Positions 16,435-30,347 of a stretch of DNA of 64,000 nucleotides are shown here, piece after piece. Position numbers and translations under genes: made by a program. Below the pieces are notes generated by a model that made no database searches, was not told where the DNA came from, and saw only the letters and a list, made by a program, of their open reading frames with translations. The DNA comes from Bacillota bacterium (GTDB lineage Bacteria; Bacillota; Clostridia; TANB77; CAG-465): positions 11,680-75,679 of the forward strand of contig JAEYPQ010000030.1 in the NCBI GenBank assembly GCA_023410645.1, read 5' to 3'. Position 1 is the stretch's first letter. Every line of letters begins with the position of its first letter.

Positions 16435-16854
16435 ATGAAAAACACTAGGAATAAAAAAATAGTATTTGAAATCTTATCTATAGTATTAATTTGTATCTTG
16501 TTTACTAGTTCGATTTTTGGATTAACACCATCAGAGCCTGGTAAAGGAAATGAGCTAACACCAATAACAGATTTAGCAGGATCAATTTGGGCAACTTTTG
16601 CAACTGTTGTTCAAGTAGCTGCAATTGTAGCAGTAGTACTTGCTGGAGTAAGATATATGTTTGCATCAGCAGATGCAAAAGCAGATATAAAAAAGCAAAC
16701 TATAACATTGGTTATTGGTGCAGTGTTAGTATTTGCTGCAGTACCACTTACCAAGTTGATTGTCGGTGCTGCAAAAGACATTTTAGACTCTAATAGTGGT
16801 TCTGCACCAAATATAGAAGTAGATCCACGTAATCCAAATCAAATGTCACAATAG
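16435..16854 (+). CDS. VirB2/TrbC-like pilin-family protein, paralog 1 (139 aa)
   Basis: Signal peptide/TM (ILSIVLICILFTSSIFG). Then hydrophobic helix 1 (AGSIWATFATVVQVAAIVAVVLAGV), a short charged loop (RYMFASADAKADIKKQ) and hydrophobic helix 2 (TITLVIGAVLVFAAVPL). This is the TrbC/VirB2 architecture. Assignment is by topology and motif, not by search. Confidence 0.5.
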   Translation: MKNTRNKKIVFEILSIVLICILFTSSIFGLTPSEPGKGNELTPITDLAGSIWATFATVVQVAAIVAVVLAGVRYMFASADAKADIKKQTITLVIGAVLVFAAVPLTKLIVGAAKDILDSNSGSAPNIEVDPRNPNQMSQ

Positions 16855-16949
16855 ATGTGTTATTATGTAGATTATTGCTCTGAATTTAGCTAATTTAGCT
16901 GAAAAATTAAAAAAATATATAAAATTTATATAAAAATTTGAGTAAACTA

Positions 16950-16977
16950 TTGATTTTTGCTAAAAAATGGGTATAAT
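16950..16977 (+). promoter_or_regulatory. Near-consensus sigma-A promoter (TTGATT-16-TATAAT) for pilin-like gene 2
   Basis: TTGATT at 16950-16955, TATAAT at 16972-16977. RBS AAGGAGG 7 nt before the ATG at 17012. Confidence 0.5.
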
Positions 16978-17011
16978 TAAATTAGGGATATAAAACTTAA
17001 GGAGGAATTTT

Positions 17012-17374
17012 ATGAAAAAGTCAAAGAAAATATTATTAAGAGTATTACCTGTATTAATGGTTATGTTTGTACTTATTGCTAGCCCTATTTTTGGAATAGA
17101 TGTTAAGGATCCAGATTCTCTAGGTGGTAAAGGATCAACTGATATTTCAAATGTTGCAGGTAACATTTGGCAAACAATTAGTACAGTAGTTCAAGTAGTT
17201 GCAATTGCAGCAGTAGTACTTGCCGGTGTAAGATATATGTTTGCATCAGCAGACGCAAAAGCAGATATTAAGAAACAAACAGTTATTTTAATAGTTGGAG
17301 CAGTGCTTGTATTTGCGGCAGTACCTTTAATGAAATTGATTGCTTCTGTATCAGATCAGATAATAAATCAATAA
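17012..17374 (+). CDS. VirB2/TrbC-like pilin-family protein, paralog 2 (120 aa; probable major subunit)
   Basis: Same architecture as paralog 1. The C-terminal 75 aa are about 85 percent identical to paralog 1 at both protein and nucleotide level (16606-16749 vs 17186-17330). Strongest promoter and RBS of the three. Followed by a hairpin plus T-run (17413-17450) that could attenuate read-through. Confidence 0.5.
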   Translation: MKKSKKILLRVLPVLMVMFVLIASPIFGIDVKDPDSLGGKGSTDISNVAGNIWQTISTVVQVVAIAAVVLAGVRYMFASADAKADIKKQTVILIVGAVLVFAAVPLMKLIASVSDQIINQ

Positions 17375-17472
17375 ATTATATTGGTGTTACTTAATTATTA
17401 TAGATTATAATTAAAAAAGATATTTTAAGTTTTAACTTATTATATCTTTTTTTATAGAAAGAAGTTGATAAG

Positions 17473-18147
17473 ATGAAAGAAAAAATTATTGCTTTTGTAT
17501 GCATATTTATGTTGTTATTTACAATTGGTACAAATGTACAAGCAGCAAATGCACAGACTACTGAAGGCACTCAAAAAAACTTTCTTGATGACATTTTTGG
17601 GCAGGGAAGCACTTGGTTTAATTCTGCAAAGGGTACAGAAAGTGAGAATAGTTTTGGAAATGCCATTAAAGATTATATTAATAATGGTGGTATAATGCAA
17701 GCCGTGCTTGCAGTTGGAAATCTCGTATTTGCTATTGTTACAGTTACATTAGGTGCAAAGTATATTTTTTCAGGTATAGAAGGTAAATCTATAATAAAAG
17801 AAACTTTGCCAACTTTTGTTGTTGGTGTAATTTTCTTTTATTTAGCTAGTAATTTAGTATTTTTCTTTACAAATGATGCAGGAACTGGTGTATTAAATAT
17901 TTTATTTGGTGGGACACCAAATTTCACCACAATATCAGGTAGTATTTGGTCTACAATTTCAATTGTAATAAATACGGTGTCTATTGCAGGCATTGTGTTT
18001 ATAGGACTTAGATACATGTTTGCTGGTCCTGATTCAAAAGCAGATATTAAAAAAAGCCTTCTACCAGTTACGCTTGGAATTATATTCGTTTATTGTGCAT
18101 TTCAGGTATTAAATTTTATAGTACAAGTTGGAAATGCAGCTATATAA
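17473..18147 (+). CDS. Tandem pilin-module protein (224 aa): signal peptide, soluble segment, then two VirB2/TrbC-like helix-loop-helix modules
   Basis: Signal peptide ending ...NVQAANA. Module A: IMQAVLAVGNLVFAIVTVTLGAKYIFSGIEGKSIIKETLPTFVVGVIFFYLASNLVFF. Module B: GSIWSTISIVINTVSIAGIVFIGLRYMFAGPDSKADIKKSLLPVTLGIIFVYCAF, which shares the RYMFA..D.KADIKK loop with paralogs 1 and 2. Confidence 0.45.
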   Translation: MKEKIIAFVCIFMLLFTIGTNVQAANAQTTEGTQKNFLDDIFGQGSTWFNSAKGTESENSFGNAIKDYINNGGIMQAVLAVGNLVFAIVTVTLGAKYIFSGIEGKSIIKETLPTFVVGVIFFYLASNLVFFFTNDAGTGVLNILFGGTPNFTTISGSIWSTISIVINTVSIAGIVFIGLRYMFAGPDSKADIKKSLLPVTLGIIFVYCAFQVLNFIVQVGNAAI

Positions 18148-18155
18148 TTAATAAA

Positions 18156-18198
18156 TTGTTACATAAAAATTACATTTATGTAACAATTTATTTTTTTG
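18156..18198 (+). terminator. Strong rho-independent terminator after the pilin-like gene triplet
   Basis: Perfect 12-bp stem TTGTTACATAAA / TTTATGTAACAA with 7-nt loop, followed by TTTATTTTTTTG. Confidence 0.75.
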
Positions 18199-18219
18199 TT
18201 TATTTTTGCTTGAAAATTG

Positions 18220-18248
18220 TTGATAAATTAGCGTATTTATGATAAAAT
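18220..18248 (+). promoter_or_regulatory. Putative sigma-A promoter (TTGATA-17-TGaTAAAAT) for the T4SS-like operon
   Basis: TTGATA at 18220-18225 and TAAAAT at 18243-18248 with upstream TG. RBS AGAGGGGGA before the ATG at 18298. Confidence 0.4.
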
Positions 18249-18297
18249 TTCTTAAAGTATGAATTATCATTACTAAAGAAGAGGGGGATATATTAAA

Positions 18298-18642
18298 ATG
18301 GGGAGAACTTATACGGTACCAAGAAGTGTAAAAGGTGAATCTAGATTATTATATATATTTTCAATAAGATCTTTTGTTTCTACTGTTGTATTTGGATTTG
18401 TGGGCTTTTTGATAGGAAGTTTGCTTTCACTTGTTGGAGCTAGTGGTTTAATTAAAGTTATAATGACTGCTGTCTTTGGAATAATTGGATATGGAATGGC
18501 AACACTAGTAATTCCGGATACACCTATTGTTGGAAACTTAAGAAAAGCTGGTGGAGAGCAGGTCGGTGAAATTTTACTTAGAATTATAACTTTTAAAAGA
18601 AGAAAGAAAATATATATTTATAGATATGGGGGAGATAAATAA
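18298..18642 (+). CDS. PrgI / VirB3-like small two-TM protein (114 aa)
   Basis: Size, position immediately upstream of the VirB4-like region, and two adjacent TM helices (VVFGFVGFLIGSLLSLVGA, IKVIMTAVFGIIGYGMATLVI) match the VirB3/PrgI/TcpE-like component of Gram-positive T4SS. Confidence 0.45.
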   Translation: MGRTYTVPRSVKGESRLLYIFSIRSFVSTVVFGFVGFLIGSLLSLVGASGLIKVIMTAVFGIIGYGMATLVIPDTPIVGNLRKAGGEQVGEILLRIITFKRRKKIYIYRYGGDK

Positions 18643-19958
18643 TGGATACAGTTACAATTATTGGTATTGTTTTAATTTTAGGATTTGGAATAGCTTTTAC
18701 AATAGCTATGATTATTCAAGGTAATAAAGCAAAGAAAAATGTTTCCAAGACTTCAAGTGATAAAACTTCAACACAAAAAGATTATAAGACAAATAAAAGT
18801 GGGGAAATACCTAAAAAAGATATATTAAATTTTATGGAGTTTGATAGAATTGTAGATGATATGATTTTACAAGAAAAAGAAAGCAAATATACTATGGTTG
18901 TTCAATGTAAGGGAATAAATTATGATCTTATGTCAGAAATCGAACAATTATCCGTTGAAGAAGGTTTTATAACTTTTTTAAATACTTTAAAATTTCCTGT
19001 ACAATTATATGTACAAGCAAGAGCAATTGATCTTAAAAAGAGTATGGAAATATATAAAGAAAATGTAGATGGTATTTCAAATCAATTTAATGATGCTGAA
19101 AATAGATTGAAAAATGTTGCTAGTAATCTAAATTCTACAAATGCTCAATTAAATGAAGCTAAAATGGAAAGAGAAAAATATTTGAATATGCTTGAATATG
19201 CTAATGACATTAAAAGATATATGGAAGTTTTAAGCCTAAATAAACATGTATTGCAGAGAAAATTCTATGTTGTAATCTCTTATCATAAATCTGAAGTTAC
19301 TGCTACATCAGAATTTACTAAAGAAGAATTACATGAGATATGTCATAGAGAATTATACACAAGAGCACAAACAATTATAAGTGCACTTTCTGCTTGTTCA
19401 GTATCTTCTAGAGTATTATCTTCAAACGAACTTGCAGAGTTATTATATATTTCATATAATAGGGATGATGAAAAATTAATTGATATAAAGACTGCATTGG
19501 ATTCTGGTTTTTATAGATTGTATTCCACATCTGAAGATGTATATGATAAAAAACAAAACCTAATGCAAAGAGAAATTGAAGAAGAGGCTAAAAGAAGAGT
19601 TACAGATGCAATAAAAGAAGCTTTAGATGCTGAAAAAATAAAAACTCCAGATGAATTAACTGAGGAATTTGAAGAAAGAGCTGATAGAGAAGCAATTACT
19701 ATAGTAAGAGATTCAGATATAGATGATGAATCTAAAGATAAACTTATAAATATAATTGCAGAAAATCATGTAGCAAAAGCAAATGTAAGAAAAGATATTA
19801 AAAAGGCTGGTTTAGATAATGAGCAAATTGATAATAAAGTAAATGCTGAAGATAATGATGAGCAAGCTGAATCAAAAGAAGAAAATAATAATATAGATAA
19901 TCAAAGTGAATTAAAAAATGATAAAATCATAAATAATGAAAATGATTCTATTATTTAG
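18642..19958 (+). CDS. T4SS-associated membrane-anchored coiled-coil protein with acidic C-terminal tail (438 aa)
   Basis: Start overlaps the upstream stop (ATAAATGG). One N-terminal TM helix. Residues 60-140 (FMEFDRIVDDMILQEKESKYTMVVQCKGINYDLMSEIEQLSVEEGFITFLNTLKFPVQLYVQ) resemble the N-terminal segment of Gram-positive VirB4 proteins as I recall it. Long coiled coil, then a D/E/N-rich tail. Confidence 0.35.
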   Translation: MDTVTIIGIVLILGFGIAFTIAMIIQGNKAKKNVSKTSSDKTSTQKDYKTNKSGEIPKKDILNFMEFDRIVDDMILQEKESKYTMVVQCKGINYDLMSEIEQLSVEEGFITFLNTLKFPVQLYVQARAIDLKKSMEIYKENVDGISNQFNDAENRLKNVASNLNSTNAQLNEAKMEREKYLNMLEYANDIKRYMEVLSLNKHVLQRKFYVVISYHKSEVTATSEFTKEELHEICHRELYTRAQTIISALSACSVSSRVLSSNELAELLYISYNRDDEKLIDIKTALDSGFYRLYSTSEDVYDKKQNLMQREIEEEAKRRVTDAIKEALDAEKIKTPDELTEEFEERADREAITIVRDSDIDDESKDKLINIIAENHVAKANVRKDIKKAGLDNEQIDNKVNAEDNDEQAESKEENNNIDNQSELKNDKIINNENDSII

Positions 19959-19971
19959 GAGGTAAAATACA

Positions 19972-21945
19972 ATGGGAAAAGATAAAAAAAATAAAAAAGG
20001 TAATAACACTCAAGAAGAACTTGTTAGAGCTAATGAAGAAAGTGTTAATTTTCTAGAATCAAATAAATCAAATTTAAAAGACTTAATATCACCTGCTGGA
20101 ATAGATGCAAGTCATTATGATTATATGGAGATATTCTCTAAAGTGTCTAGATATATTAGAACTTTCTATGTTACAACTTTACCTAGACAAGCATCTTTCC
20201 CTTATTTCTTATCAAATATATATGAATTTGGGGATGTAAATACTTCAGTATTTATAACTCCTATTTCGGAAACTGCATCACAAAGAGATTTAAATAAAAC
20301 TATTGTTGAGTTACAATCCGAAAGGTATGTTGCAGCAGATAGGGGAGATATAAATAGAGCGGCAGTTCTTGCAACTAAGCAATCTGAGGCTGAGGAGTTA
20401 AGAGATCAAATTGCTGCTGGATATAATAAACTATTTGAAGCTACAATTGTTGCTAGTTTATTTGCATATAGTAAAAATGAGCTTGATAAAGCATCTGAAC
20501 TTCTAGCAATGGAAGCTTCAAAAAATATGGTTGGAATAAAAGCTACTTGGGCAATGCAAGAAGAGGCTTTTCAAAGTAACCTACCTCTAAATAAAAATAA
20601 ATTAAATAGAAAACATACTTTTGATAGAGGGTCAATGGCAACAGTTTTTCCTTTTGTTTCTTCGGAAGTTGGACATGATATTGGTGTACCTATTGGAATA
20701 AATAAACAAACTGGATTACCTCTATTGTTTGATAATTTCCACTCTTCTCTTAATAATTATAATATGATAATATTTGGAAAATCTGGATCTGGTAAATCTG
20801 TTACAATTAAAACAATTATGGCAAGATCTTCAGTATTAATGGGAGTTGAAAACTTAGTTATAGATGCTGAAGGAGAATATTCAGTGGTTGCTGAGTCATT
20901 AAATGGAATAAATATAGTAATAAGTCCAAACAGTAATACAATAATAAACATATTCGACATCGAGCCAGAAACAGTAAAAGATGAAATAACTGGTAGGGAA
21001 AGAATAGTTTTAAATGTTGAAAATAAGGTTGAGGATGCAACACAATCTTTATTAACAATGGCTCGTGGTGCTACTAGAAGTCAGGAAGTAAATGAACTTA
21101 CAAAGCAGATAATTGCAGAAATAGTTGCAGAATTATATGCAAGAAGGAAAATTAAAAGTGATATAAATTCACTATATGAAGATGCAAATGAGTTAAATGT
21201 AACAAATAATTTTGTTGGTCTTAAGAAAAAAGAAATGCCGACAATAGGTGATTGGTATGATGTACTTGTAGAAAAAGCATCAGAAAATACCACAGAAACA
21301 TATGCATATCATTATAATTATTTACTTAAAGTAATGAAACAATATTGTAAAAAATTTGATGGTCAAATGTCTTATTTTGATGGTCAATCAACTTTTGAAT
21401 TGATGGATGGTAATCAATTTATAAATCTTAATCTTTCTCAACTTGAAGAAAAATTTGCAAGACCTTTGGCACAGCAAATACTCCTTTCTTGGGTATGGGA
21501 AAAGTATGTTAAGAAAAATAGCGAAAATAGAACTAAGGCAAGAAGAAAAAGGGTTCTTATAGATGAGGCATGGATGTTACTTGATTATCCTGAAGCAGTT
21601 CAATTTTTAAATACAATGGCAAGACGTGCTAGAAAAAGAAATGTTTCTCTTGCAGTTGTATCACAGAAATTCCAAGATTTCTATGAAAAGAAAGAAGCAC
21701 AAGCAGTTTTAACTTCTTCTGATACAAAATTATTTTTGGCTCAAGATAAATCTGAAATTGAATACTTAAAAGAAGTATTTAAATTAAGTGAAGGAGAAAC
21801 AGATTTCTTACTTACATGTTCAAGAGGTGAAGGTCTTATACGTATAGGTCAAGAATCAGCGGTAATTGCTATACAGCCAACACAAAAAGAATTTGAATTT
21901 GTTGAAACAAATTTGACAAATATAATTGCGCGTAAACAAAGCTAA
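19972..21945 (+). CDS. VirB4-family T4SS ATPase (TraE/PrgJ/TcpF-like, 657 aa)
   Basis: Walker A IFGKSGSGKSVT. Walker B in RVLIDEAWMLLD, the DEAW hallmark of VirB4/TrbE/CagE. N-terminal motif RTFYVTTLPRQASFPYFLSNIYEFGDVNTSVFITPI matches the conserved FYV..LP...W/FL....d.s.hI.P block of Gram-positive VirB4. Length matches pIP501 TraE-type VirB4. Confidence 0.8.
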   Translation: MGKDKKNKKGNNTQEELVRANEESVNFLESNKSNLKDLISPAGIDASHYDYMEIFSKVSRYIRTFYVTTLPRQASFPYFLSNIYEFGDVNTSVFITPISETASQRDLNKTIVELQSERYVAADRGDINRAAVLATKQSEAEELRDQIAAGYNKLFEATIVASLFAYSKNELDKASELLAMEASKNMVGIKATWAMQEEAFQSNLPLNKNKLNRKHTFDRGSMATVFPFVSSEVGHDIGVPIGINKQTGLPLLFDNFHSSLNNYNMIIFGKSGSGKSVTIKTIMARSSVLMGVENLVIDAEGEYSVVAESLNGINIVISPNSNTIINIFDIEPETVKDEITGRERIVLNVENKVEDATQSLLTMARGATRSQEVNELTKQIIAEIVAELYARRKIKSDINSLYEDANELNVTNNFVGLKKKEMPTIGDWYDVLVEKASENTTETYAYHYNYLLKVMKQYCKKFDGQMSYFDGQSTFELMDGNQFINLNLSQLEEKFARPLAQQILLSWVWEKYVKKNSENRTKARRKRVLIDEAWMLLDYPEAVQFLNTMARRARKRNVSLAVVSQKFQDFYEKKEAQAVLTSSDTKLFLAQDKSEIEYLKEVFKLSEGETDFLLTCSRGEGLIRIGQESAVIAIQPTQKEFEFVETNLTNIIARKQS

Positions 21946-21951
21946 TTAAGA

Positions 21952-22929
21952 ATGGGTGATGAAATGATTAAATTAAAGAATAAGAAACATATACTAATGA
22001 TTACAATTATTATACTTATGATAGTAGCATTAAATGTATTACCATTTAGTAACATTCATGCATATACGAATGATGCACCTCAGGCATCAGATGCTGAAAA
22101 TCTAGTAAAAGGTGCTATAGGATGGATATTATCCACTGGTGCTGGAGTTTTGGCTACTCCAATAACTTATGTTATAAATATGGTTAATGTTGTAATATTT
22201 AGCATTCTATATACTGTATTTGTAGGTTCTAAGATTGTAGATACTATATTTTCATTTCCAACACCTGATAATGTAATTTTTAATAGAATAGGCTTTTTTG
22301 ACCCTAATTTTATTAATCCTACCCCTGTAGAGAGTGCACCGGTAGTACAAATAAAAACTGTAATTCAAAGTCTATATTATTCTTTCTTTACAGTAGCAAT
22401 AACAATATTTGTTATTGCAGCACTTGTTATTGGAATAAAGCTTGCACTATCTACAATAGCTTCTGAAAAAGCTCAATTTAAGAATGCATTGAAAAATTGG
22501 GTTATGGGTATAGTTTTATTATTTACAATACATTTTGTCATGGCAGGAATTTTTGCAATAAATGAAGAGATAGTTAAAATTGCATCTAACTATGCTGGAG
22601 ACAATATTAGTTTTAATATACAAGTTACTTCTGGAATTCCTGTGGTAGGAAATGCACTGTCTAGTATTATAAGAGGATTTAGTGATTTAATTGGAAGTAA
22701 TAATCCAATTGATGCTTTTCAAATGAATGGATATTTAGGATTAATAATACAATTTTTAGTTAAGTCAGTTGGTGGAGATTTATTATCTTCAATAGCACTT
22801 ACGATAATTTTATTCCAGACTGTTGCGATAGTTGCTATGTATATTAAAAGACTATTTTATTGTATAATCCTTGGAGTAATAGCGCCTCTTGTTGTAGCAG
22901 CAGATGTAGTAAAGAAATCTATAGGTTAA
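21952..22929 (+). CDS. Polytopic membrane protein, VirB6/TrbL-like candidate (325 aa)
   Basis: Signal/TM at N-terminus, then at least 5 TM helices with short loops. Positioned right after the VirB4-like gene as in Tn916/ICEBs1/pCW3-type loci. No catalytic motif. Confidence 0.4.
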   Translation: MGDEMIKLKNKKHILMITIIILMIVALNVLPFSNIHAYTNDAPQASDAENLVKGAIGWILSTGAGVLATPITYVINMVNVVIFSILYTVFVGSKIVDTIFSFPTPDNVIFNRIGFFDPNFINPTPVESAPVVQIKTVIQSLYYSFFTVAITIFVIAALVIGIKLALSTIASEKAQFKNALKNWVMGIVLLFTIHFVMAGIFAINEEIVKIASNYAGDNISFNIQVTSGIPVVGNALSSIIRGFSDLIGSNNPIDAFQMNGYLGLIIQFLVKSVGGDLLSSIALTIILFQTVAIVAMYIKRLFYCIILGVIAPLVVAADVVKKSIG

Positions 22930-22941
22930 AGGAGGATTAAT

Positions 22942-24081
22942 ATGGGAGAAAAAAATAATAAAAAGGGATTATTTGAAAATTGGTTTTCCATGTTTGTTTC
23001 CAATGTTTTTATACAAAGCTTTCAAGCAGTATTTTTAATGTTTCTATTGCAATTTATAGCAGGGGTACAAAAATCAAATGCATCTGATATGCTTATTGCA
23101 TTATTAACTATTGCTGGACTTGCTGGTATAATTAAATTTGAAAAATTAGTCCAAGAAATATTTCAAATTAAAGAATCTAAAAGTGGTAGTTTCGGTAGAA
23201 ACTTCTATAGAACTATGCAGGGTATAAAAAGTGGTTCTGATCTAGTAAGTAGAACTTCAGAGCCTTTTAAAAACTATGCAAATGTTAAGAGAAATAGAAT
23301 TAAATTAGACAATGAAATAGCGGCAAGAAAAATCACTGATAAACCAAAAACTCAGGATAGTGGTGTTGGTACTAGTACAGGTGGTACAGGTGCTACAGTT
23401 CAAGGCACTGCTGCAAGTCAAATCTTAAATCCTCAATCTGGAGGGACTGCTAGACAAATTGTAGACGCTAATGGAAATCCTATTTCAAGTGGAAGATTTT
23501 CAACTGGACCAGTTGTTGCAGCTAGTTCTAATGGACAAAATATTTCAGGTGGAAGTTTTGAAAAAATGGAAGCTAGCTTAGACAGATTAGCAAAAATTAT
23601 GGAAAAGAGTACTGGAGTTTCTGATAATTCTTCTAAATCGATACCAGAGTTAGAAAAACAAAGAGATGAATTAAAACTTCAAGAATCTAAATTAGGAATG
23701 CAAAGATTTACTAGACTTGGAACAACGCTTGCTGCTGTTGGTGGAGCTTTTGGCGCAAATGATGGAGATTTTGGGGAGGCTATGACTCTTGCAAATGTTG
23801 TTGATAAACCTTTGGATTCTGCAAGTGACAAGATGATTAATAGTAGGGTTTATAAACCAAGATACAAAGAGGCACTCCAAGAGTATAACCAAGCTATACA
23901 AACAAAAAGCCCTGATGCTATGGAAGCATTCAAAAAACTTGAATCAGCAAGTAAAACAATGCATAATTCACTTGCAAGAGAAGCTGAAGATTTTGCTAGA
24001 AGCGCCGTAAATTCGTTTACACCTTCTAAAGAAGCAAGAAAAAAGCGTAGAGTAGATATTGATAGTATAGATGTAATTTAG
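22942..24081 (+). CDS. Membrane protein with two N-terminal TM helices, Gly/Thr/Ser-rich linker and C-terminal coiled coil (379 aa)
   Basis: RBS AAAGGAGG before the ATG. Low-complexity segment GVGTSTGGTGATVQGTAASQ. Coiled-coil C-terminus. No recognisable enzymatic motif. Confidence 0.35.
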   Translation: MGEKNNKKGLFENWFSMFVSNVFIQSFQAVFLMFLLQFIAGVQKSNASDMLIALLTIAGLAGIIKFEKLVQEIFQIKESKSGSFGRNFYRTMQGIKSGSDLVSRTSEPFKNYANVKRNRIKLDNEIAARKITDKPKTQDSGVGTSTGGTGATVQGTAASQILNPQSGGTARQIVDANGNPISSGRFSTGPVVAASSNGQNISGGSFEKMEASLDRLAKIMEKSTGVSDNSSKSIPELEKQRDELKLQESKLGMQRFTRLGTTLAAVGGAFGANDGDFGEAMTLANVVDKPLDSASDKMINSRVYKPRYKEALQEYNQAIQTKSPDAMEAFKKLESASKTMHNSLAREAEDFARSAVNSFTPSKEARKKRRVDIDSIDVI

Positions 24082-24091
24082 GAGAGTTTAT

Positions 24092-24670
24092 ATGTTTAAA
24101 CAATTAAATAAAGGAACTAATATAATAATTATAGTAGTATTTGCACTTGCCTGTTTGAGTTTTATTATAAATGCCATTATAGGTATATTTAAAAAACCAG
24201 AGTTATTGAATACTGATGATATAACTCAATATATAATAACTGATAATGTTGTTGATGAAAATGGAAATATAACAAAAGCTTCTAATATAGTTAAAGATTA
24301 TAATACTTTTTACACTTTGCAAGATGCTACTGAAAACTTTATACAATATATAGTCGATCAAAAATTTTCTCAAACATATAGTGTACTTTCTGATGAAATT
24401 AAAAGTAAATATTCTAAATCAGAGTACGAAGATAAGATTAAAGTTGTATATGATAAAAACTTTTCAGTCACTTATAGTGATGAGAATATAAAAAATGGAC
24501 AAGATAATGGAATTAATAATTTTAATAACTCAAATAATTTGGTAAATTTATATAAAATATCTGAAAATGAATATATTTGTGAGACTAAGAATGTACATTC
24601 AAAAATTTTTAAACTAGGTATAAGATTGGAAAATAATAATACATATAAAGTTTTTTATATTGATTTTTAA
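24092..24670 (+). CDS. N-terminally anchored extracytoplasmic protein (192 aa), possible VirB8-like scaffold
   Basis: Single N-terminal TM (IIIIVVFALACLSFIINAIIGIF) followed by a soluble mixed alpha/beta domain. Role inferred only from context. Confidence 0.3.
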   Translation: MFKQLNKGTNIIIIVVFALACLSFIINAIIGIFKKPELLNTDDITQYIITDNVVDENGNITKASNIVKDYNTFYTLQDATENFIQYIVDQKFSQTYSVLSDEIKSKYSKSEYEDKIKVVYDKNFSVTYSDENIKNGQDNGINNFNNSNNLVNLYKISENEYICETKNVHSKIFKLGIRLENNNTYKVFYIDF

Positions 24671-24680
24671 GAGGTGTTTG

Positions 24681-25556
24681 ATGGAAGAACAAAAAAATAG
24701 TAAAATAATATTAGGTTTATCCGCTATATTTATTTTGGTATTTGTGATTATTGCTATATTTGCATTAGTACAAATATGGAAACCTAAAGACAATACTGAA
24801 GAAAAAATTGTTTTATCGTCTAGTAATGATAAAATAGGTACATATAAGAAAATTAAGTATACTGAAAATCAGCAAATTTCCCAGTATATAACTCTTGTCA
24901 CTAATGCTATTGTTAGTAGTGATACTGATAAATTATATTCTATGTTAAATGAGGAATATAGAGATTATTTTAGCATTGATAAAACAAAAGCAGAAAACAT
25001 TTTTAAGACAAGAGGATTTCTTGGAAGAATGTTAACTTCTGACAAATATACTAAGGCTACAATAGATGGTAGAAGCATTTATATAGTTCCTTTAAAGACT
25101 TCCGTAAATGGAGCAATATATGATAATGTGATAATAACTGAATATTCACCAAGAAAATTTTCTATTGCTTTTGATGATTTCCTTACTTATGATAAATCAG
25201 AAAAAGTATATTATAGAGATGAACTTAAATTAGTTGTATATAATAAAGTTAATTTTATAACTTCGGTAAGTGCTAAAGTTAAGATTACAAATTTATCAGA
25301 TGAGAGAATAACAATAAATGATTCACACAAATATGAGAATTTCTACATAAGATTTAATGATCAAAGCGAAGTATTAACAAATTTGAGCTTTTTATCTGGT
25401 GAATCTTATGAGATGATAAAAAATCAGGAATTGGCTTTTGATGCTTCTTTTGAAATTCCTGCATTATCTCATCAGGCAATAAATTCATATGTATTAAAAG
25501 ATGTTAAATATATGAAAAATGGTGCCACAAAAGATTTAGAATTTAATATAAAATAG
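24681..25556 (+). CDS. N-terminally anchored extracytoplasmic protein (291 aa), possible VirB8/TcpC-like
   Basis: ATG at 24681 follows GAGGTG (24671-24676); the six-frame ORF opens at 24660. Single TM (ILGLSAIFILVFVIIAIFALV) then a soluble domain. Size and topology are like TcpC/VirB8-like proteins, by inference. Confidence 0.3.
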   Translation: MEEQKNSKIILGLSAIFILVFVIIAIFALVQIWKPKDNTEEKIVLSSSNDKIGTYKKIKYTENQQISQYITLVTNAIVSSDTDKLYSMLNEEYRDYFSIDKTKAENIFKTRGFLGRMLTSDKYTKATIDGRSIYIVPLKTSVNGAIYDNVIITEYSPRKFSIAFDDFLTYDKSEKVYYRDELKLVVYNKVNFITSVSAKVKITNLSDERITINDSHKYENFYIRFNDQSEVLTNLSFLSGESYEMIKNQELAFDASFEIPALSHQAINSYVLKDVKYMKNGATKDLEFNIK

Positions 25557-25595
25557 GTAGTTTGTTTGCTATATAAAAAAGCGAGGTGATATTAT

Positions 25596-28500
25596 TTGGA
25601 CGATTTTGAAAAAGAGTACGAAGAAGAGCTACTTAGACAACAACAAGAAGAACAAAGAAATCAAGATATAAATATTAGGGATACATATGATAAATTAAAA
25701 AGTGCACAAGAAAAATACCAAAAACTTTCTGACAAAATTAATAGTTCAAATAATAATCTTAAACAAGGCTCTTTAAATAGAGATGCAGCAAATAATATAA
25801 ATAAATCAGCTGGAAAAAAAGCTACTGAGCAAGGTGCTAAATCAGTAAGTAATGAAGCTGCTAAGAGTGCTGGAAAAGAAGCTGCAAAAACTGCTGGAAA
25901 AGAGGCTGTAAAAAAAACTGGTGAAGAAGCTGCGAAAGAGGCGGGGAAGCAGGTAGCAAAAACTGCAGCAAAAGAAGCAGCTAAAAAGGGAGCTGAAACT
26001 GCTGCAGCTGGTACAGGAGTTGGTATACCTATTGCTGCTGCAATTGAGGCTGCTGACCAGGCACAAAAGCTAAAAGTAAAAGCAGAAGAAAAAATAAAGG
26101 AAACTACTGGAATAGATTTAAAAGAATCAAGAAAAAAGAGGAGAAAAATTGTCATAGCATTAGCACTTAGTTTGTTATTTATACTTTTAACGACAAATTA
26201 TGTTTCGAGTCAAGATTTAAATACTACACTTAAATCTTTAATTGCTAGAAGAGAAGCAAGAAATGAAAAGAAGTTAATACAATTTACAGATTCCGAATAT
26301 GATGATTTAATAAACAAAGATTATGTAGATTTACCATCAGGTTACTCTGATAATTCTGTAAATGATGAAAAGTATGCAGATCCAGGTTATAAAAGAATGC
26401 TCGAATATGCATATAGTAATAATTATGATTCTTTTTTAGCTGGTAAAACTACTATAGATAATCAGACAAAAAAAAGCGAAGTTGCTGCAAGTAACACAAG
26501 AAAATATTTAGAAGCAGAAAGACTTAATTTCAATAAAATAAAATGGTATTCATACAAAAGTAACTATACATATAATCATTCATCAAGTTTAGCAAACGAT
26601 GTTGTACCAACATTCTTAAATTCAAGTACAGGTTCAATTCAGGCAAATGGTAAAATTACGGATTCAGAGCTAAATATTCCAAAGTTATCTGAATATGACG
26701 TAAATCCAGGAAGTAATACAAAGCAAAAAGAAGATATGTATATTGATTTACTATCAAATTATATGCAAAAATGGTTTATTCCATATTTAATGATGATTGA
26801 TACGCAGTCAAAGGAATTTACAATTAATGAAGTAATGGAAAAAATGTATAGTCCTGTTAACGTAACTTTATACCAGATTAATAGAGATACCAAAAAAACG
26901 AAAACTACTTACTACCTAGAGTGTGAGGTAGTTATTAGGACAATTACAACTACGATTGGACCTAATGGTGAAATAAGTACCAGTTCACATATTTCAGACA
27001 GAAGAAATTCTAATACTAAGAATGATCCTGTTGGAACAACTAGTTATAATAATGGTAATACTACAATAGAAAAGACAGTAACTTCAAATGGTAAAATTGC
27101 AACTGATTCTTCTGGAAATCCTATGGTAGCATCTGTTACTGTTGAAAGAAATATATCACCATATAAGTATGTACCTAAGATAACTTATTGCGAGGGATTT
27201 TATGATATAATAAGTGCAAGATACAAAATTGATCCTATAAATGAGGCAATAACTCCAAAAAGCACATCTGAAACGCCTCTTACATCGTCGGATGCTAATA
27301 CTTCATATATTACAAAGACTGAGATTTGGGATGAAAATATATTAAATGATGTATATGAAAAGAAAGATTATAAAGTCTCATACTATTCAGATGAAGATTA
27401 TAAGAACTTGGGAAGAAAAGTATCAAGAGTTGAATGGTATCAAGATTATGGAAATTATTTATATAAATCTGGAAAATCTGATGTTGATTTAAAGATCTAT
27501 GACAATGAGATATATCCATTAAAAGTTACAAATAAAGGTGAAACTATTGATGGATATCAAAATGATTATTTATTGAGTTTAGAAGAAGCCTATGACTCAT
27601 ACTCAAATTCAAAAGGATATTCGTATGATGATATGTATTTTGCATATACATTAATAAGTGAATATTATAGTAATATAAATAGTCTTGGAAGTGATGTAAA
27701 TTTAAATTTAAATGGTATACCTTATGATGGATTTGCTTGGCCAGTTGAGATAACAGCAGAAAATCCAGGTACTAATGTTATAAATACACTTTTTGGACTT
27801 ACACCAGCTTATGGAAGTAGTCATACTGGAATAGATATATCAAGTGGAAATCTAAGATATAAGGAAGGAAACTTAACTAAAGGACCTAAAATTTTGGCGG
27901 CACATGATGGAGTTGTTACAGCTGTTTCTAACACTGCCACATCTGATTCAGTATATGATTCTAGCACTGGTCAATTTACTTATATATCACCATATAACTT
28001 TGTAAATATTAGAACACAAGATGGCACTTATACAACTCAATATGGGCATTTATCTGAAATTAATGTTAAGGTAGGAGATACTGTAAAAAGGGGACAAGTT
28101 ATAGGAAGGATGGGTACAACTGGTTATTCTACGGGAGTTCATTTGCATTTTGAGATAATAGATTCTACTGGTGAAAGACTAGATCCTTTGAATTATTATA
28201 TTACAGATCCAGAATATGGAAGTATTAACCGTAACTCAATAACTTCAATGCCAAGTGGTTATGTATATTTAAGGCCTAAGACATTTAGTATATCTGGAAA
28301 TTCACAAATTTCTGATATGATAGCAAAGGCTATAGAATTAGCAAATAAAAAGAATATTTTATATAGACAAAACGGAAGACAAACGGCTAGCACTATAGTT
28401 GGATTAGATAATATTACTCAGGCAGATTGTAGTTCATTTGTATATTCTTTATTTAAAACATACTTAAATATAAACGTCGGAATGACTTCTGATGATATAA

Positions 28501-29183
28501 AAAGTAGAGGCGATAATAAGCATTCTGAAAATGGTTGGACTGCCGAATCAGGAGCCATAAATTCTGATTATTCTAAACTTCAACCAGGTGATATATTATG
28601 GCGCAGTGGACACGTTGGACTATATGTTGGTGATGGAAAACAAGTTGATCTTGGTGGTCCTGGAGGGGAAAATTCTGAAGCAGATCCTAATTGGAAAGGG
28701 CCAATTTATGATACAGACATAGATGGCTATACACATTATATAAGATATGTGAATAAAAATGCATTAAATGGAGTTAGTGCAGAAGATATCTTATTAATGT
28801 CTAGAATTATTGCACAAGAAGCTGGATACAATATGGAAGATTGTTTAGCTGTTGCAGCTGTAATTGTTAATAGAGTAAAAAGTCAAAGCAATGATTTTAA
28901 AGATGAAGACACGGTTCGCAAAGTTATTTATCCTGCAGGAGATGATATGGCTAAAAATAGATTGCAATGGGCATCAATAGGTGGAGTAGAATTTAATAAA
29001 GAACCTGATAAGAGTAAGGCACCGTATAAAGCTGCATTAATGGCCATAGCTGGTGAAGATCCAACAGGAGGAGCACTATATTTCTATAGTCCAAGAGGTG
29101 GATTTTATAGTGAATGGCATGAATCCTTAAAATATTTGTATACGTCACCAAATGGTCAAAGATTCTTTACACCAGAAGAATAG
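25596..29183 (+). CDS. Multidomain peptidoglycan hydrolase (VirB1/PrgK/CwlT analogue, 1195 aa)
   Basis: N-terminal coiled coil plus Lys/Ala-rich degenerate 8-aa repeats (AGKEAAKT-like, 25800-26000). One TM (IVIALALSLLFILLTT), then a large extracytoplasmic region. M23 domain: HTGIDISSG, AAHDGVVTAV, YGHLSE, GVHLHFEI. NlpC/P60 domain: ADCSSFVYSLF with Cys, GHVGLYVGDG with His. SleB-type cell wall hydrolase (Hydrolase_2) domain: LMSRIIAQEAG...LAVAAVIVNRVKS...GGALYFYSP. Confidence 0.75.
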   Translation: MDDFEKEYEEELLRQQQEEQRNQDINIRDTYDKLKSAQEKYQKLSDKINSSNNNLKQGSLNRDAANNINKSAGKKATEQGAKSVSNEAAKSAGKEAAKTAGKEAVKKTGEEAAKEAGKQVAKTAAKEAAKKGAETAAAGTGVGIPIAAAIEAADQAQKLKVKAEEKIKETTGIDLKESRKKRRKIVIALALSLLFILLTTNYVSSQDLNTTLKSLIARREARNEKKLIQFTDSEYDDLINKDYVDLPSGYSDNSVNDEKYADPGYKRMLEYAYSNNYDSFLAGKTTIDNQTKKSEVAASNTRKYLEAERLNFNKIKWYSYKSNYTYNHSSSLANDVVPTFLNSSTGSIQANGKITDSELNIPKLSEYDVNPGSNTKQKEDMYIDLLSNYMQKWFIPYLMMIDTQSKEFTINEVMEKMYSPVNVTLYQINRDTKKTKTTYYLECEVVIRTITTTIGPNGEISTSSHISDRRNSNTKNDPVGTTSYNNGNTTIEKTVTSNGKIATDSSGNPMVASVTVERNISPYKYVPKITYCEGFYDIISARYKIDPINEAITPKSTSETPLTSSDANTSYITKTEIWDENILNDVYEKKDYKVSYYSDEDYKNLGRKVSRVEWYQDYGNYLYKSGKSDVDLKIYDNEIYPLKVTNKGETIDGYQNDYLLSLEEAYDSYSNSKGYSYDDMYFAYTLISEYYSNINSLGSDVNLNLNGIPYDGFAWPVEITAENPGTNVINTLFGLTPAYGSSHTGIDISSGNLRYKEGNLTKGPKILAAHDGVVTAVSNTATSDSVYDSSTGQFTYISPYNFVNIRTQDGTYTTQYGHLSEINVKVGDTVKRGQVIGRMGTTGYSTGVHLHFEIIDSTGERLDPLNYYITDPEYGSINRNSITSMPSGYVYLRPKTFSISGNSQISDMIAKAIELANKKNILYRQNGRQTASTIVGLDNITQADCSSFVYSLFKTYLNINVGMTSDDIKSRGDNKHSENGWTAESGAINSDYSKLQPGDILWRSGHVGLYVGDGKQVDLGGPGGENSEADPNWKGPIYDTDIDGYTHYIRYVNKNALNGVSAEDILLMSRIIAQEAGYNMEDCLAVAAVIVNRVKSQSNDFKDEDTVRKVIYPAGDDMAKNRLQWASIGGVEFNKEPDKSKAPYKAALMAIAGEDPTGGALYFYSPRGGFYSEWHESLKYLYTSPNGQRFFTPEE

Positions 29184-29197
29184 GGGAGTAGAAGTAG

Positions 29198-30028
29198 ATG
29201 AATGAAAAAGATGATATAAAGTTTAATAAAAATAATAGTGGTGTTCATAAAAGAACACCACGAAAAATAAAATATTCTTTGGAACAGTTAGAACAAATAA
29301 AAAAAGAAGAACAAGTATTAGATATGTATGTTGAAAGCATTGATGATAGTCTGAATATGATAGGTATTGTAGGGACAGATATAAAAGCGATGATACCAAG
29401 AGATGAAGCTTCAAGTATTGTTGGAGATGATGGACTAGTTGAAGAAAAATTTATTGTTAATAAAAAAGGAAAAATAATACCTACATGTATAAAAGAAATA
29501 ATAAAAAATGGTGATAATATTGAATTGATATTGTCAAAGAAGATACTTGAACTTAAAGTAAGACGTTGGATGTATATGCATTTGAAACCAGGTATGAAAC
29601 TTAAAGGTGTTGTTGTAAGTACTACTGAATATGCAGCTTTTGTTGATGTTGGTGGAGGAGTAACAGGTATATTAAAATTATCTGATATTTCTGATGTATC
29701 ATTACAACATTCTAATGATGTTTTTAAATTAGGTCAAAGAATAGAAGTTATGGTAAAGAAATTCGATAGAGATACTGGAAGAATTGAATTAACATATAAA
29801 GAATTGTTAGGTTCTTTTGAAAACAATGTTAAAAATCTAAAAGAGGGAGACATTGTTGACGGTATTATACGAAATAGAATTAAGACTGGTGTGTTTGTTG
29901 AATTAAAACCTAATCTTGTTGGTCTTGCTGAACATGTTAATGGAGTGGAATATGGACAAAAGGTACTAGTTAGTATAAAAAGAATTATTCCAGAAAAGAA
30001 AAAGATTAAACTTGTAATCATAGGATAA
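29198..30028 (+). CDS. S1 RNA-binding domain protein with tandem S1/OB repeats (276 aa)
   Basis: Two clear S1 modules: MKLKGVVVSTTEYAAFVDVGGGVTGILKLSDIS...RIEVMVKKFDRDTGRIELTYK and EGDIVDGIIRNRIKTGVFVELKPNLVGLAEHVNGVEYGQKVLVSIKRII. Starts 15 nt after the hydrolase stop, so probably co-transcribed. Confidence 0.55.
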   Translation: MNEKDDIKFNKNNSGVHKRTPRKIKYSLEQLEQIKKEEQVLDMYVESIDDSLNMIGIVGTDIKAMIPRDEASSIVGDDGLVEEKFIVNKKGKIIPTCIKEIIKNGDNIELILSKKILELKVRRWMYMHLKPGMKLKGVVVSTTEYAAFVDVGGGVTGILKLSDISDVSLQHSNDVFKLGQRIEVMVKKFDRDTGRIELTYKELLGSFENNVKNLKEGDIVDGIIRNRIKTGVFVELKPNLVGLAEHVNGVEYGQKVLVSIKRIIPEKKKIKLVIIG

Positions 30029-30252: not shown

Positions 30253-30347
30253 TGTTCAATTGACATAAAAATTAATAAATGATATAATATAGCAAATGAA
30301 TATAAAATATTAGAGTAAATCTTATTATGATAAAGGAGAGAGTTTAA

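What the first reader, a model, noticed from the sequence alone, without database searches (positions are those of the whole stretch)
25596..29183. 1195-aa cell-wall hydrolase combining M23 endopeptidase, NlpC/P60 peptidase and SleB-type lytic domain behind a Lys/Ala-rich repeat and a TM anchor
All three catalytic signatures are readable:
- M23: HTGID, YGHLSE, HLHFEI.
- NlpC/P60: DCSSFVY Cys, GHVGLYVGDG His.
- SleB/Hydrolase_2: AVAAVIVNRVKS, GGALYFYSP.
The cytoplasmic N-terminus contains degenerate 8-aa Lys/Ala repeats (AGKEAAKT-like). At the DNA level these form a locally GC-rich imperfect tandem repeat at about 25800-26000, which also generates spurious antisense ORFs. Three different peptidoglycan-cleaving activities in one T4SS-associated protein exceed described analogues (CwlT has two, PrgK three but of different types). 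The arrangement suggests the apparatus must breach a thick cell wall.
Basis: seen in the sequence. Interest (0 to 1): 0.65.

Follow-up and report, generated by a model that had tools for sequence, protein, structure and literature searches.

The report
Three-enzyme wall cutter of chromosomal T4SS
This is a real 1195-residue membrane-anchored protein with three intact-looking cell-wall-cutting domains, encoded in a secretion-machine gene cluster on the chromosome of an uncultured gut Clostridia bacterium; it follows the plan of the known plasmid protein PrgK but uses a scaffold seen only in a small lineage-restricted family, whose enzyme domains are swapped from species to species.

Summary
ORF 25596-29183 (+) starts at TTG behind a GAGGTG ribosome-binding site. 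It encodes M23 (E 2.5e-20), NlpC/P60 (26.2 bits against a cut-off of 23) and SleB-type Hydrolase_2 (E 9.4e-14), all above Pfam gathering scores. The catalytic residues are present: H743/D747/H818/H849/H851, C945/H1006/D1018 and E1075. The Lys/Ala 8-residue repeat, its GC peak, the antisense ORFs and a single TM helix (185-203) are confirmed.

The gene lies in a T4SS-like cluster (three VirB2-like pilin genes, PrgI/VirB3, TraC-like protein, VirB4). No relaxase, coupling protein or integrase was found among the ORFs of at least 100 aa in the 64 kb. At least 80 species-level Clostridia MAGs carry the block (VirB4 67-85% identical).

"Exceeds described analogues" is overstated. PrgK already has LytM + muramidase + CHAP, and relatives of this protein carry four or five domains.

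New points:
- A 490-residue extracellular scaffold with no Pfam, PDB or BFVD match (47 hits among 1.84 billion representatives).
- Replacement of the enzyme head across positional orthologues: 14 Pfam families in 41 proteins.

Verdict: a new variant of the Gram-positive VirB1/PrgK-type hydrolase, of moderate interest.

The parts
25583..25588 (+). Shine-Dalgarno GAGGTG, 7 nt before the TTG start at 25596-25598
   Evidence: sequence read directly
25596..29183 (+). Complete ORF, 1195 aa, multidomain membrane-anchored peptidoglycan hydrolase
25596..26147 (+). N-terminal region, aa 1-184, predicted cytoplasmic. It is K 17%, A 17%, E 12%, has an invariant MDD start and no signal peptide.
   Evidence: The topology is inferred from the positive-inside rule.
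25800..25991 (+). Eight degenerate 8-residue Lys/Ala units (xGKEAAKx), aa 69-132. The TRF array is at 25854-25987, period 24, 5.5 copies, with local GC 0.44-0.47.
   Evidence: K82/K90/K122/K130 are invariant in homologues, and homologues differ by 4- or 8-residue indels.
26004..26063 (+). Conserved Gly/Ala-rich hydrophobic stretch, aa 137-156 (AAAGTGVGIPIAAAIEAADQ), with invariant G141, G143, A147, E151 and D154. Its role is unknown.
26148..26204 (+). Single transmembrane helix, aa 185-203, preceded by KESRKKRRK
   Evidence: Kyte-Doolittle maximum 2.32 at residue 185
26259..27731 (+). Extracellular scaffold domain, aa 222-712, the family hallmark. It has no Pfam family. Conserved motifs are NFNxIxW (F312, N313, W317), P362, YxQKWxIPY (389-397) and W578.
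26856..27371 (+). Beta-rich core of the scaffold, aa about 421-592. The AF2 model gives pLDDT mostly 81-93 and very long strands (up to 34 residues).
27822..28187 (+). M23 metallopeptidase domain, aa 743-864. Key residues are H743, D747, H818, H849 and H851. There is an insertion of roughly 12 residues after HTGID.
28416..28658 (+). NlpC/P60 cysteine peptidase domain, aa 941-1021. Key residues are C945, H1006 and D1018.
28806..29144 (+). SleB/CwlJ-type Hydrolase_2 domain, aa about 1071-1183, with putative catalytic E1075
25661..26155 (-). Antisense ORF of 164 aa (Ala/Ser/Phe-rich) opposite the K/A repeat. It is judged spurious. A second antisense ORF of 74 aa lies at 25842-26066.
   Evidence: The gene calls of public contigs do not include it.
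16435..25556 (+). Upstream T4SS-like genes on the same strand:
- two TrbC/VirB2-like pilins (16435, 17012)
- a T4SS_pilin-like protein (17473)
- PrgI/VirB3-like (18298)
- a 438-aa protein with a precomputed PF26593 TraC-like hit (18642)
- VirB4 ATPase (19972-21945)
- an MMCAP2_0566-like membrane protein (21952)
- three proteins of unknown function (22942, 24092, 24660); the one at 24092 has a weak NTF2-like hit
29198..30028 (+). S1-domain RNA-binding protein, 15 nt downstream. It is syntenic with the hydrolase in many related loci and probably shares its transcript.

Best explanation
The protein is the VirB1-type cell-wall-remodelling subunit of a chromosomally encoded, Gram-positive-style (MPF-FATA-like) type IV secretion or pilus apparatus, in an uncultured low-GC gut Clostridia bacterium.

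**Proposed anatomy** (inferred from sequence):
- About 184 N-terminal residues stay in the cytoplasm. They include a Lys/Ala 8-residue repeat, probably a charged helical spacer or docking arm.
- One TM helix (aa 185-203) anchors the protein in the membrane.
- A beta-rich scaffold of about 490 residues, restricted to this lineage, projects outward.
- At its end sit three peptidoglycan-cleaving modules:
  - an M23 metallo-endopeptidase (peptide cross-links);
  - an NlpC/P60 cysteine peptidase (stem peptide);
  - a SleB/CwlJ-type Hydrolase_2 domain (glycan strands; a lytic transglycosylase by analogy with SleB).

**Proposed action** (inferred):
- Anchoring next to the VirB4, TraC-like and PrgI proteins confines wall lysis to the assembly site.
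- This opens a local duct in the cell's own wall for the pilus or channel.

**Shown:** the domains, the catalytic residues, the gene context, the synteny and the narrow distribution of the scaffold.

**Not tested:** enzyme activities, bond specificities, topology, and whether all three domains are active rather than regulatory, as two of them are in PrgK.
For: - **Domains and residues:**
- **Anchor:** a single TM helix with a positively charged cluster before it.
- **Gene position:** same strand, 40 nt after the preceding T4SS-cluster gene, with no + strand terminator-like site in the intergenic gaps on either side of the gene.
- **Neighbours:** VirB4 (P-loop_TraG 3.9e-16), PrgI, TraC-like protein, TrbC/VirB2 pilins.
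- **Synteny:** the order SSB, small M23, pilins, PrgI, TraC-like protein, VirB4, four genes, large hydrolase, S1 protein recurs in dozens of species-level genomes.
- **Homology of positional orthologues:** all 41 share the scaffold motifs (F312, W317 and P362 invariant).
- **Enzyme content of orthologues:** they almost always combine peptidase and glycan-cleaving Pfam families. This is the same functional formula as PrgK (LytM + muramidase + CHAP behind an intracellular domain and a TM helix; PMC11323569, PMC12857230).
Against: - No activity, topology or interaction data exist.
- There is no detectable sequence similarity to PrgK (BLASTP best E 0.96).
- The scaffold has no match on any of 72,556 plasmids. 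Homology with characterised T4SS hydrolases is therefore limited to shared domain families.
- No relaxase or coupling protein was found among the window's ORFs of at least 100 aa, so what the apparatus transports is unknown.
- The NlpC/P60 score is marginal and the third triad residue is Asp.
- In PrgK two of the three domains are catalytically silent.
- Frequent replacement of the enzyme head between species with VirB4 at least 72% identical is not obviously required for a protein that only cuts its own wall.
Confidence: 0.6

Rival explanations
1. The enzyme head works in trans, as a wall-breaching module. The scaffold presents the three hydrolase domains to the wall of a partner cell (recipient, host or prey) contacted through the T4SS pilus. 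The head is exchanged between species to match the partner's peptidoglycan chemistry, as in polymorphic effectors.
For: - 41 positional orthologues share one scaffold but carry 14 different wall-active Pfam families.
- Species with VirB4 81-85% identical differ in head composition.
- The hydrolase is only 13-40% identical where VirB4 is 72-85% identical.
- The cluster lacks a relaxase and a coupling protein in the window, like the Patescibacteria T4SS, which is thought to be co-opted for epibiotic life. There, a peptidase and a lysozyme downstream of virB4 are essential (PMC12102498).
Against: - The protein is membrane-anchored by an uncleaved TM helix, so its reach is limited to its own envelope unless it is released.
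- No immunity-like gene is adjacent; the next gene is an S1 RNA-binding protein.
- Other predicted extracellular proteins of the cluster diverge as fast (g379, g192 and g298 are about 22-42% identical). Rapid change is therefore not specific to the hydrolase.
- Characterised conjugative T4SS hydrolases also differ widely in domain content (PMC12857230).
Confidence: 0.2
2. It is a general autolysin for growth, division or cell separation. It merely sits beside the T4SS-like genes and has no functional link to them.
For: - The flanks are housekeeping genes, and GC is uniform across the window.
- M23 and NlpC/P60 enzymes are typical division and separation hydrolases.
- Two further M23 proteins lie in the window, at 15782-16369 and 43682-44389.
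Against: - Its position after the VirB4 block is conserved across many species, even where the flanking genes differ.
- The genes are tightly spaced on the same strand.
- The scaffold domain is very rare: 47 of 1.84 billion representatives.
- In every locus examined here, the scaffold lies in this cluster.
Confidence: 0.1
3. It is a spore-cortex or germination lytic enzyme, suggested by the SleB-type domain.
For: - Hydrolase_2 matches SleB structures 4F55 and 4FET (E 3e-7) and TIGR02869 weakly.
- A weak SpoIIM-like hit lies nearby in the window.
Against: - The TIGR02869 score is 44.6 against a cut-off of 236.5.
- Only 3 of 41 positional orthologues have Hydrolase_2. The others carry lysozyme, SLT, glucosaminidase or 3D domains at that end.
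- The TM-anchored architecture with an N-terminal cytoplasmic domain is unlike SleB or CwlJ.
Confidence: 0.03
4. It is a remnant of a phage tail-associated lysin or of a prophage.
For: - M23, NlpC/P60 and lysozyme combinations occur in phage tail lysins.
- PrgK itself is annotated as "phage tail tip lysozyme".
Against: - No phage genes were found in the window.
- The scaffold has no fold match in BFVD viral structures.
- GC shows no island signature.
Confidence: 0.02

Closest known systems
PrgK of Enterococcus faecalis plasmid pCF10 (VirB1-like, DELTA class of Gram-positive T4SS hydrolases)
   Same: - Intracellular N-terminal domain, one TM helix and three extracellular wall-active domains (PMC11323569, PMC12857230).
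- The three domains follow the same scheme: metallopeptidase (LytM/M23), glycan cleaver and papain-like cysteine peptidase.
- Encoded in the same gene cluster as a PrgI/VirB3-like gene and VirB4.
   Different: - No detectable sequence similarity (BLASTP E 0.96).
- Domain order here is M23, Cys-peptidase, glycan cleaver, against LytM, muramidase, CHAP in PrgK.
- The families differ: NlpC/P60 instead of CHAP, and Hydrolase_2 instead of Phage_lysozyme2.
- The M23 zinc and catalytic residues are intact here, whereas PrgK's LytM is degenerate.
- Extra here: a 490-residue scaffold domain and a Lys/Ala repeat.
- The gene is chromosomal, with no relaxase or T4CP nearby, whereas pCF10 carries both.
CwlT (ICEBs1), TcpG (pCW3), TraG (pIP501), Orf14 (Tn916): two-domain or one-domain T4SS hydrolases
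   Same: - They are wall hydrolases encoded within Gram-positive T4SS gene sets.
- They share the NlpC/P60 or CHAP plus glycan-cleaver logic. For TraG and Orf14 this comes from PMC12857230. For CwlT and TcpG it comes from my own knowledge and was not checked here.
   Different: - They have fewer domains and no M23.
- No scaffold domain or Lys/Ala repeat is described for them (PMC12857230; my own knowledge for CwlT and TcpG); none of these four sequences was fetched or compared here.
- They are carried on conjugative elements with a relaxase and a T4CP.
Peptidase and lysozyme genes downstream of virB4 in Patescibacteria chromosomal T4SS clusters (PMC12102498)
   Same: - Chromosomal, relaxase-less, MPF-FATA-related T4SS with VirB2-like pilins.
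- Wall hydrolases, some with M23 domains, lie beside virB4.
   Different: - A different phylum.
- No sequence comparison was made here.
- Whether those proteins share the scaffold domain is unknown. The exhaustive profile search found only 47 proteins in total.
SleB/CwlJ spore cortex lytic enzymes (PDB 4F55, 4FET)
   Same: - The C-terminal domain belongs to the same Pfam family (PF07486).
- It conserves the Glu taken as catalytic and the AVAAV..NRV and DPTG..ALYF motifs.
   Different: - It is not an equivalog (44.6 bits against a cut-off of 236.5).
- It has no SleB N-terminal PG-binding domain.
- It is fused to a T4SS-associated multidomain protein.
C39-family peptidase + 3D-domain protein in the VirB4 cluster of Clostridium beijerinckii plasmid p1 (NZ_CP107023)
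   Same: - It belongs to the closest plasmid-borne VirB4 relative (42% identity).
- A multidomain wall hydrolase lies two genes after VirB4.
   Different: - 681 aa with Peptidase_C39_2 + 3D.
- tblastn with the N-terminal region plus scaffold of the window protein found no match on this or any other plasmid in PLSDB.

Membership tests
Peptidase_M23 (PF01551; LytM/lysostaphin type) | Profile score above the gathering threshold | tested here: met
   72.9 bits against 28.7, E 2.5e-20
Peptidase_M23 (PF01551; LytM/lysostaphin type) | Zn ligands HxxxD and HxH, plus the catalytic His | tested here: met
   H743, D747, H849 and H851 are invariant in the family alignment. H818 (YGHLS) aligns to lysostaphin YMHLS, and HLHF aligns to HLHF. 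The HxxxD motif is separated by an insertion and was not covered by the pairwise alignments.
NlpC/P60 (PF00877) | Profile score above the gathering threshold | tested here: met
   26.2 bits against 23, E 8e-6; marginal. The precomputed annotation agrees.
NlpC/P60 (PF00877) | Cys-His-polar catalytic triad | tested here: inconclusive
   C945 (DCSSF) and H1006 (GHVG) are present. The third position is D1018 where 8er5 has His. Acidic third residues are known in the family (RipA; from my own knowledge), but this was not verified here.
Hydrolase_2 (PF07486; SleB/CwlJ catalytic domain) | Profile score above the gathering threshold, and the catalytic Glu | tested here: met
   52.3 bits against 27. 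E1075 falls in an invariant column with the Glu of the SleB GESRGE motif. That this is the catalytic Glu, E151 in PDB 4F55, is from my own recollection; a paper search for the residue number found nothing. That a Glu is essential for SleB activity comes from PMC12331253.
SleB equivalog (TIGR02869, spore cortex-lytic enzyme) | Full-length score above the curated cut-off | tested here: not met
   44.6 bits against 236.5
Gram-positive VirB1-like T4SS hydrolase, DELTA class (PrgK type) | Encoded within a T4SS gene cluster beside VirB4 and VirB3 | tested here: met
Gram-positive VirB1-like T4SS hydrolase, DELTA class (PrgK type) | Intracellular N-terminal domain plus a single TM anchor, with the enzymatic part outside | tested here: met
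   One hydrophobic helix at aa 185-203 with a KRRK cluster before it. This is a sequence prediction only.
Gram-positive VirB1-like T4SS hydrolase, DELTA class (PrgK type) | Three extracellular enzymatic domains | tested here: met
Gram-positive VirB1-like T4SS hydrolase, DELTA class (PrgK type) | Sequence homology to PrgK | tested here: not met
   BLASTP best E 0.96. Only Pfam family types are shared, with relatives of this protein (Phage_lysozyme2, CHAP).
Gram-positive VirB1-like T4SS hydrolase, DELTA class (PrgK type) | Required for transfer, and binds a VirB8-like partner (PrgL) | not testable with these tools
   The only hint is a weak NTF2-like hit (MecA_N, E 0.002, below cut-off) in the 192-aa protein two genes upstream.
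Conjugative element (plasmid or ICE) | Relaxase, type IV coupling protein, integrase or replicon near the mating-pair-formation genes | tested here: not met
   None was found among the ORFs of at least 100 aa scanned across the 64-kb window. GC is uniform. These genes could still lie elsewhere in the genome.

The most novel reading that the evidence does not exclude
The cluster may be a vertically inherited, relaxase-less T4SS/pilus machine of a large gut Clostridia lineage, used for cell-to-cell interaction (epibiotic attachment, DNA import or killing) rather than for plasmid conjugation. It would be a Bacillota counterpart of the essential Patescibacteria T4SS or the archaeal Ced system.

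On this reading the 1195-aa protein is its polymorphic wall-breaching subunit. A scaffold fold with no known relative carries an exchangeable set of peptidoglycan hydrolases, matched to the wall of the partner cell.
Probability: 0.15. Interest if true: 0.8.

Novelty: new variant of a known kind. Interest (0 to 1): 0.5.

Why it matters
Gram-positive T4SSs are poorly understood, and PrgK is the main studied multidomain hydrolase. In PrgK only one of the three domains is active.

This protein offers a natural contrast:
- It follows the same three-part formula, but all catalytic residues are intact.
- It is built on an unrelated scaffold.
- Within one syntenic locus, nature has exchanged the enzyme domains many times. 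That gives a ready-made comparative set for asking which bond specificities a wall-spanning machine needs.

The context also matters. The block is chromosomal, has no relaxase in the window, contains VirB2-like pilins, and is shared by at least 80 species-level gut and rumen Clostridia genomes. This suggests that T4SS co-option beyond conjugation is not confined to Patescibacteria.

Tried and rejected
- **Genome scan with the family alignment A1** failed because no stretch was conserved enough. VirB4 was used as the query instead.
- **Full-length AF2 with 9 sequences** gave pLDDT 41.6 and was unusable, so no fold search was run on it. Only the cropped scaffold model (pLDDT 72.8) was used.
- **The word-indexed profile search with the scaffold** returned only 10 proteins. 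The exhaustive HMM search was used for the distribution.
- **Literature searches** for TANB77 or CAG-465 together with T4SS found nothing relevant. I therefore do not assign a GTDB order.
- **A search for the SleB catalytic residue number** in PMC12331253 found only a general statement. The E1075 assignment rests on alignments.
- **Spore-cortex enzyme and phage-lysin readings** were considered and rejected; see the rival explanations.
- **The antisense ORFs at the repeat** were judged to be a by-product of the repeat's biased codon content.

Full report
**1. Observation**

The window holds an uninterrupted + strand ORF at 25596-29183 (1195 aa, TTG start).
- A GAGGTG Shine-Dalgarno sequence sits 7 nt upstream.
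- The first three residues, M-D-D, are invariant in eight homologues. The start is therefore sound.

Pfam finds three wall-hydrolase domains above their gathering scores. The precomputed annotation of the identical public protein agrees.

| Domain | Residues | Bits (cut-off) |
|---|---|---|
| Peptidase_M23 | 760-864 | 72.9 (28.7) |
| NLPC_P60 | 941-1017 | 26.2 (23; marginal) |
| Hydrolase_2 | 1082-1183 | 52.3 (27) |

**2. Catalytic residues**

- **M23.**
  - The segment from NFVNIRT to HLHFE (aa 801-853) is 55% identical to lysostaphin, with YGHLS over YMHLS and HLHF over HLHF.
  - The HxxxD motif (H743, D747) lies before an insertion of roughly 12 residues. Together with H849 and H851 it is invariant in the family alignment.
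  - This contrasts with PrgK, whose LytM domain is degenerate and metal-free (PMC11323569).
- **Hydrolase_2.**
  - It matches the SleB catalytic domain structures 4F55 and 4FET (E 3e-7).
  - A 4-sequence MAFFT alignment puts E1075 in an invariant column with the Glu of the SleB GESRGE motif. I take this to be the catalytic Glu from my own recollection of the SleB structure papers.
  - phmmer had shifted it by one residue because of a one-residue loop deletion.
- **NlpC/P60.**
  - C945 and H1006 are present.
  - The third triad position is Asp1018 where 8er5 has His.
  - This is compatible with the family as I know it, but it was not verified here.

**3. N-terminal region**

- TRF reports a 24-bp period, 5.5 copies, 69% matches, at 25854-25987.
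- The protein shows eight 8-residue units (xGKEAAKx) in register at aa 69-132.
- GC peaks at 0.44-0.47 against 0.265 for the window.
- Two antisense ORFs overlap the repeat. Public gene calls omit them.
- The repeat is constrained, not slippage debris. Lysines K82, K90, K122 and K130 are invariant, and homologues differ by 4- or 8-residue indels.
- A Gly/Ala-rich stretch (aa 137-156) with five invariant residues follows. Its role is unexplained.
- The only strongly hydrophobic segment is aa 185-203, preceded by KESRKKRRK. This gives a predicted N-in/C-out bitopic topology.

**4.

Between the TM helix and M23 lie about 490 residues (aa 222-712) with no Pfam or NCBIfam hit. This region is the real hallmark of the family.
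- In an alignment of 41 positional orthologues, the only invariant columns (F312, W317, P362) and four of the six nearly invariant ones (N313, Y389, W578) are in it; the other two, G827 and G833, lie in the M23 domain.
- An AF2 model of this region with 15 sequences reached pLDDT 72.8 and pTM 0.67. Its beta core (aa about 421-592) scores mostly 81-93 and is made of very long strands.
- Fold searches found nothing significant:
  - Foldseek against the PDB gave TM scores of at most 0.09 among the top hits.
  - BFVD viral structures gave no E of 0.001 or better.
  - The AFDB library was unavailable.
- An exhaustive HMM search of 1.84 billion representative proteins with a scaffold profile found only 47 hits.
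- tblastn of aa 1-712 against 72,556 plasmids found none.

**5. Context**

- The gene is the last large gene of a same-strand block:
  - two TrbC/VirB2-like pilins and a third pilin-like protein;
  - a PrgI/VirB3-like protein;
  - a 438-aa protein with a precomputed TraC-like hit;
  - a VirB4 ATPase;
  - a protein weakly similar to a Mycoplasma ICE transfer protein;
  - three proteins of unknown function.
- An S1-domain gene follows after 15 nt, and no + strand terminator-like site lies in the gap between them.
- Everything else in the 64 kb is housekeeping: RecN-like, Clp ATPase, FBPase, Asd, RluD-like, PheST, PepF, RNase R, TrmB-like, YchF, Mur ligase and Ddl.
- No relaxase, coupling protein or integrase was found among the ORFs of at least 100 aa.
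- GC is uniform at about 0.21-0.32.
- Scanning one genome per GTDB species with VirB4 gave 377 relatives. The best 80 (67-85% identical) are gut or rumen MAGs labelled Clostridia bacterium, Clostridium sp. CAG:465 or CAG:921.
- The block from SSB through the S1 protein is syntenic in most of them. One locus (L027) also shares the pheT and pepF flanks.
- The closest plasmid VirB4 is only 42% identical. It lies in a Clostridium beijerinckii plasmid typed non-mobilizable, whose cluster carries a C39_2 + 3D hydrolase.

**6. The enzyme head is exchangeable**

While VirB4 stays 72-85% identical, the hydrolase drops to 13-40% identity. Across the 41 positional orthologues, Pfam finds 14 families:

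| Family | Proteins |
|---|---|
| M23 | 19 |
| CHAP | 15 |
| NlpC/P60 | 8 |
| Glucosaminidase | 6 |
| Peptidase_C39_2 | 5 |
| Phage_lysozyme | 5 |
| Hydrolase_2 | 3 |
| GDSL | 2 |
| SLT | 2 |
| Lysozyme_like, Phage_lysozyme2, M15_4, 3D, YkuD | 1 each |

- The nearest species by VirB4 (L004, 85%) has M23 + 3D + NlpC/P60 + Hydrolase_2.
- L023 has five domains: CHAP, M23, GDSL, SLT and C39_2.
- Close homologues pair M23 with GH24, SLT, glucosaminidase or Phage_lysozyme2.
- In the close, M23-bearing homologues the recurring formula is a metallopeptidase plus a cysteine peptidase plus a glycan cleaver, with non-orthologous replacement of each slot; the more distant orthologues often lack M23.
- No plasmid record covers 80% or more of the three-domain region.

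**7. Comparison with known systems**

- PrgK of pCF10 is described with an intracellular N-terminal domain, a TM helix and LytM + SLT (actually a muramidase) + CHAP. It is placed in the DELTA class of Gram-positive VirB1 homologues.
- In PrgK only the muramidase is active. LytM and CHAP down-regulate it, and PrgK binds the VirB8-like protein PrgL (PMC11323569, PMC12857230).
- The window protein shares that plan but shows no pairwise similarity to PrgK (E 0.96). PrgK's Pfam content is Phage_lysozyme2 + CHAP.
- The protein therefore works like a PrgK-type hydrolase without being its orthologue.
- The claim that three activities "exceed described analogues" is not supported.
- The chromosomal cluster, with no relaxase in the window and with VirB2-like pilins, recalls the Patescibacteria T4SS (PMC12102498).

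**8. Mechanism and verdict**

- Most likely (confidence 0.6): a membrane-tethered hydrolase that opens the producer's own wall at the site where the pilus or channel assembles.
- Main rival (0.2): the exchangeable head acts on a partner cell's wall.
- Autolysin, spore-cortex and phage-remnant readings are unlikely.
- The finding is real. It is a new variant of a known kind.
- Its value lies less in the count of three domains than in the scaffold without known relatives, the domain carousel and the chromosomal T4SS context.

Noticed in passing
window 15096-15749 (+): This SSB-family protein of 217 aa has its OB fold in the C-terminal half (aa 108-199), behind an N-terminal extension of about 100 residues. 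It travels with the T4SS-like block in most related loci. That may hint that the apparatus handles single-stranded DNA.
   Followed up: partly
window 15782-16369 (-): A small stand-alone M23 peptidase lies on the opposite strand at the head of the cluster. It is conserved at that position in most of the 80 related loci (38-69% identity). It is a second wall hydrolase associated with the block.
   Followed up: partly
window 16435-16854, 17012-17374, 17473-18147 (+): Two paralogous TrbC/VirB2-like pilin genes and a third T4SS_pilin-like gene sit in what appears to be a monoderm (Clostridia) genome. The two paralogues contain a near-identical hairpin, TTTGC(A/G)TCTGCTGATGCAAA. They give weak hits to Mycoplasma ICE pilin-like proteins. 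Characterised Gram-positive conjugation systems are not known for VirB2 pilins.
   Followed up: partly
window 29198-30028 (+): An S1-domain RNA-binding protein starts 15 nt after the hydrolase stop codon. It is conserved immediately downstream of the large hydrolase in many related loci (51-85% identity). A perfect sigma-70 consensus (TTGACA-17-TATAAT with TG) appears only after it, at 30260-30288. The S1 gene may therefore be the last gene of the operon.
   Followed up: partly
window 1-64000: No relaxase, type IV coupling protein, integrase or replication gene was found among the ORFs of at least 100 aa in the window. GC is uniform at 0.21-0.32. The T4SS-like block looks like a resident chromosomal system shared by at least 80 species-level MAGs.
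   Followed up: yes
window 24092-24670 and 24660-25556 (+): Two proteins of unknown function (192 and 298 aa) lie just upstream of the hydrolase. The first has a weak NTF2-like hit (MecA_N, E 0.002). They are candidates for VirB8-like partners analogous to PrgL, and they evolve fast (22-39% identity between species).
   Followed up: no
window 26004-26063 (aa 137-156 of the hydrolase): A Gly/Ala-rich hydrophobic stretch has five invariant residues (G141, G143, A147, E151, D154) in the predicted cytoplasmic part. It is the best-conserved piece of the N-terminal region. Its function is unknown.
   Followed up: no
window 43682-44389 (+): A third M23-domain protein (235 aa) lies in the window, outside the cluster. 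It is followed by a 554-aa protein with three Big_2 Ig-like domains.
   Followed up: no
L084 (Clostridium beijerinckii plasmid NZ_CP107023) 10101-21732: This is the closest plasmid-borne relative of the VirB4 block (42% identity). The plasmid is typed non-mobilizable. The cluster has the same small-gene, VirB4, large-protein layout, with a Peptidase_C39_2 + 3D hydrolase. Clostridium botulinum plasmids carry a similar VirB4 (39% identity).
   Followed up: partly
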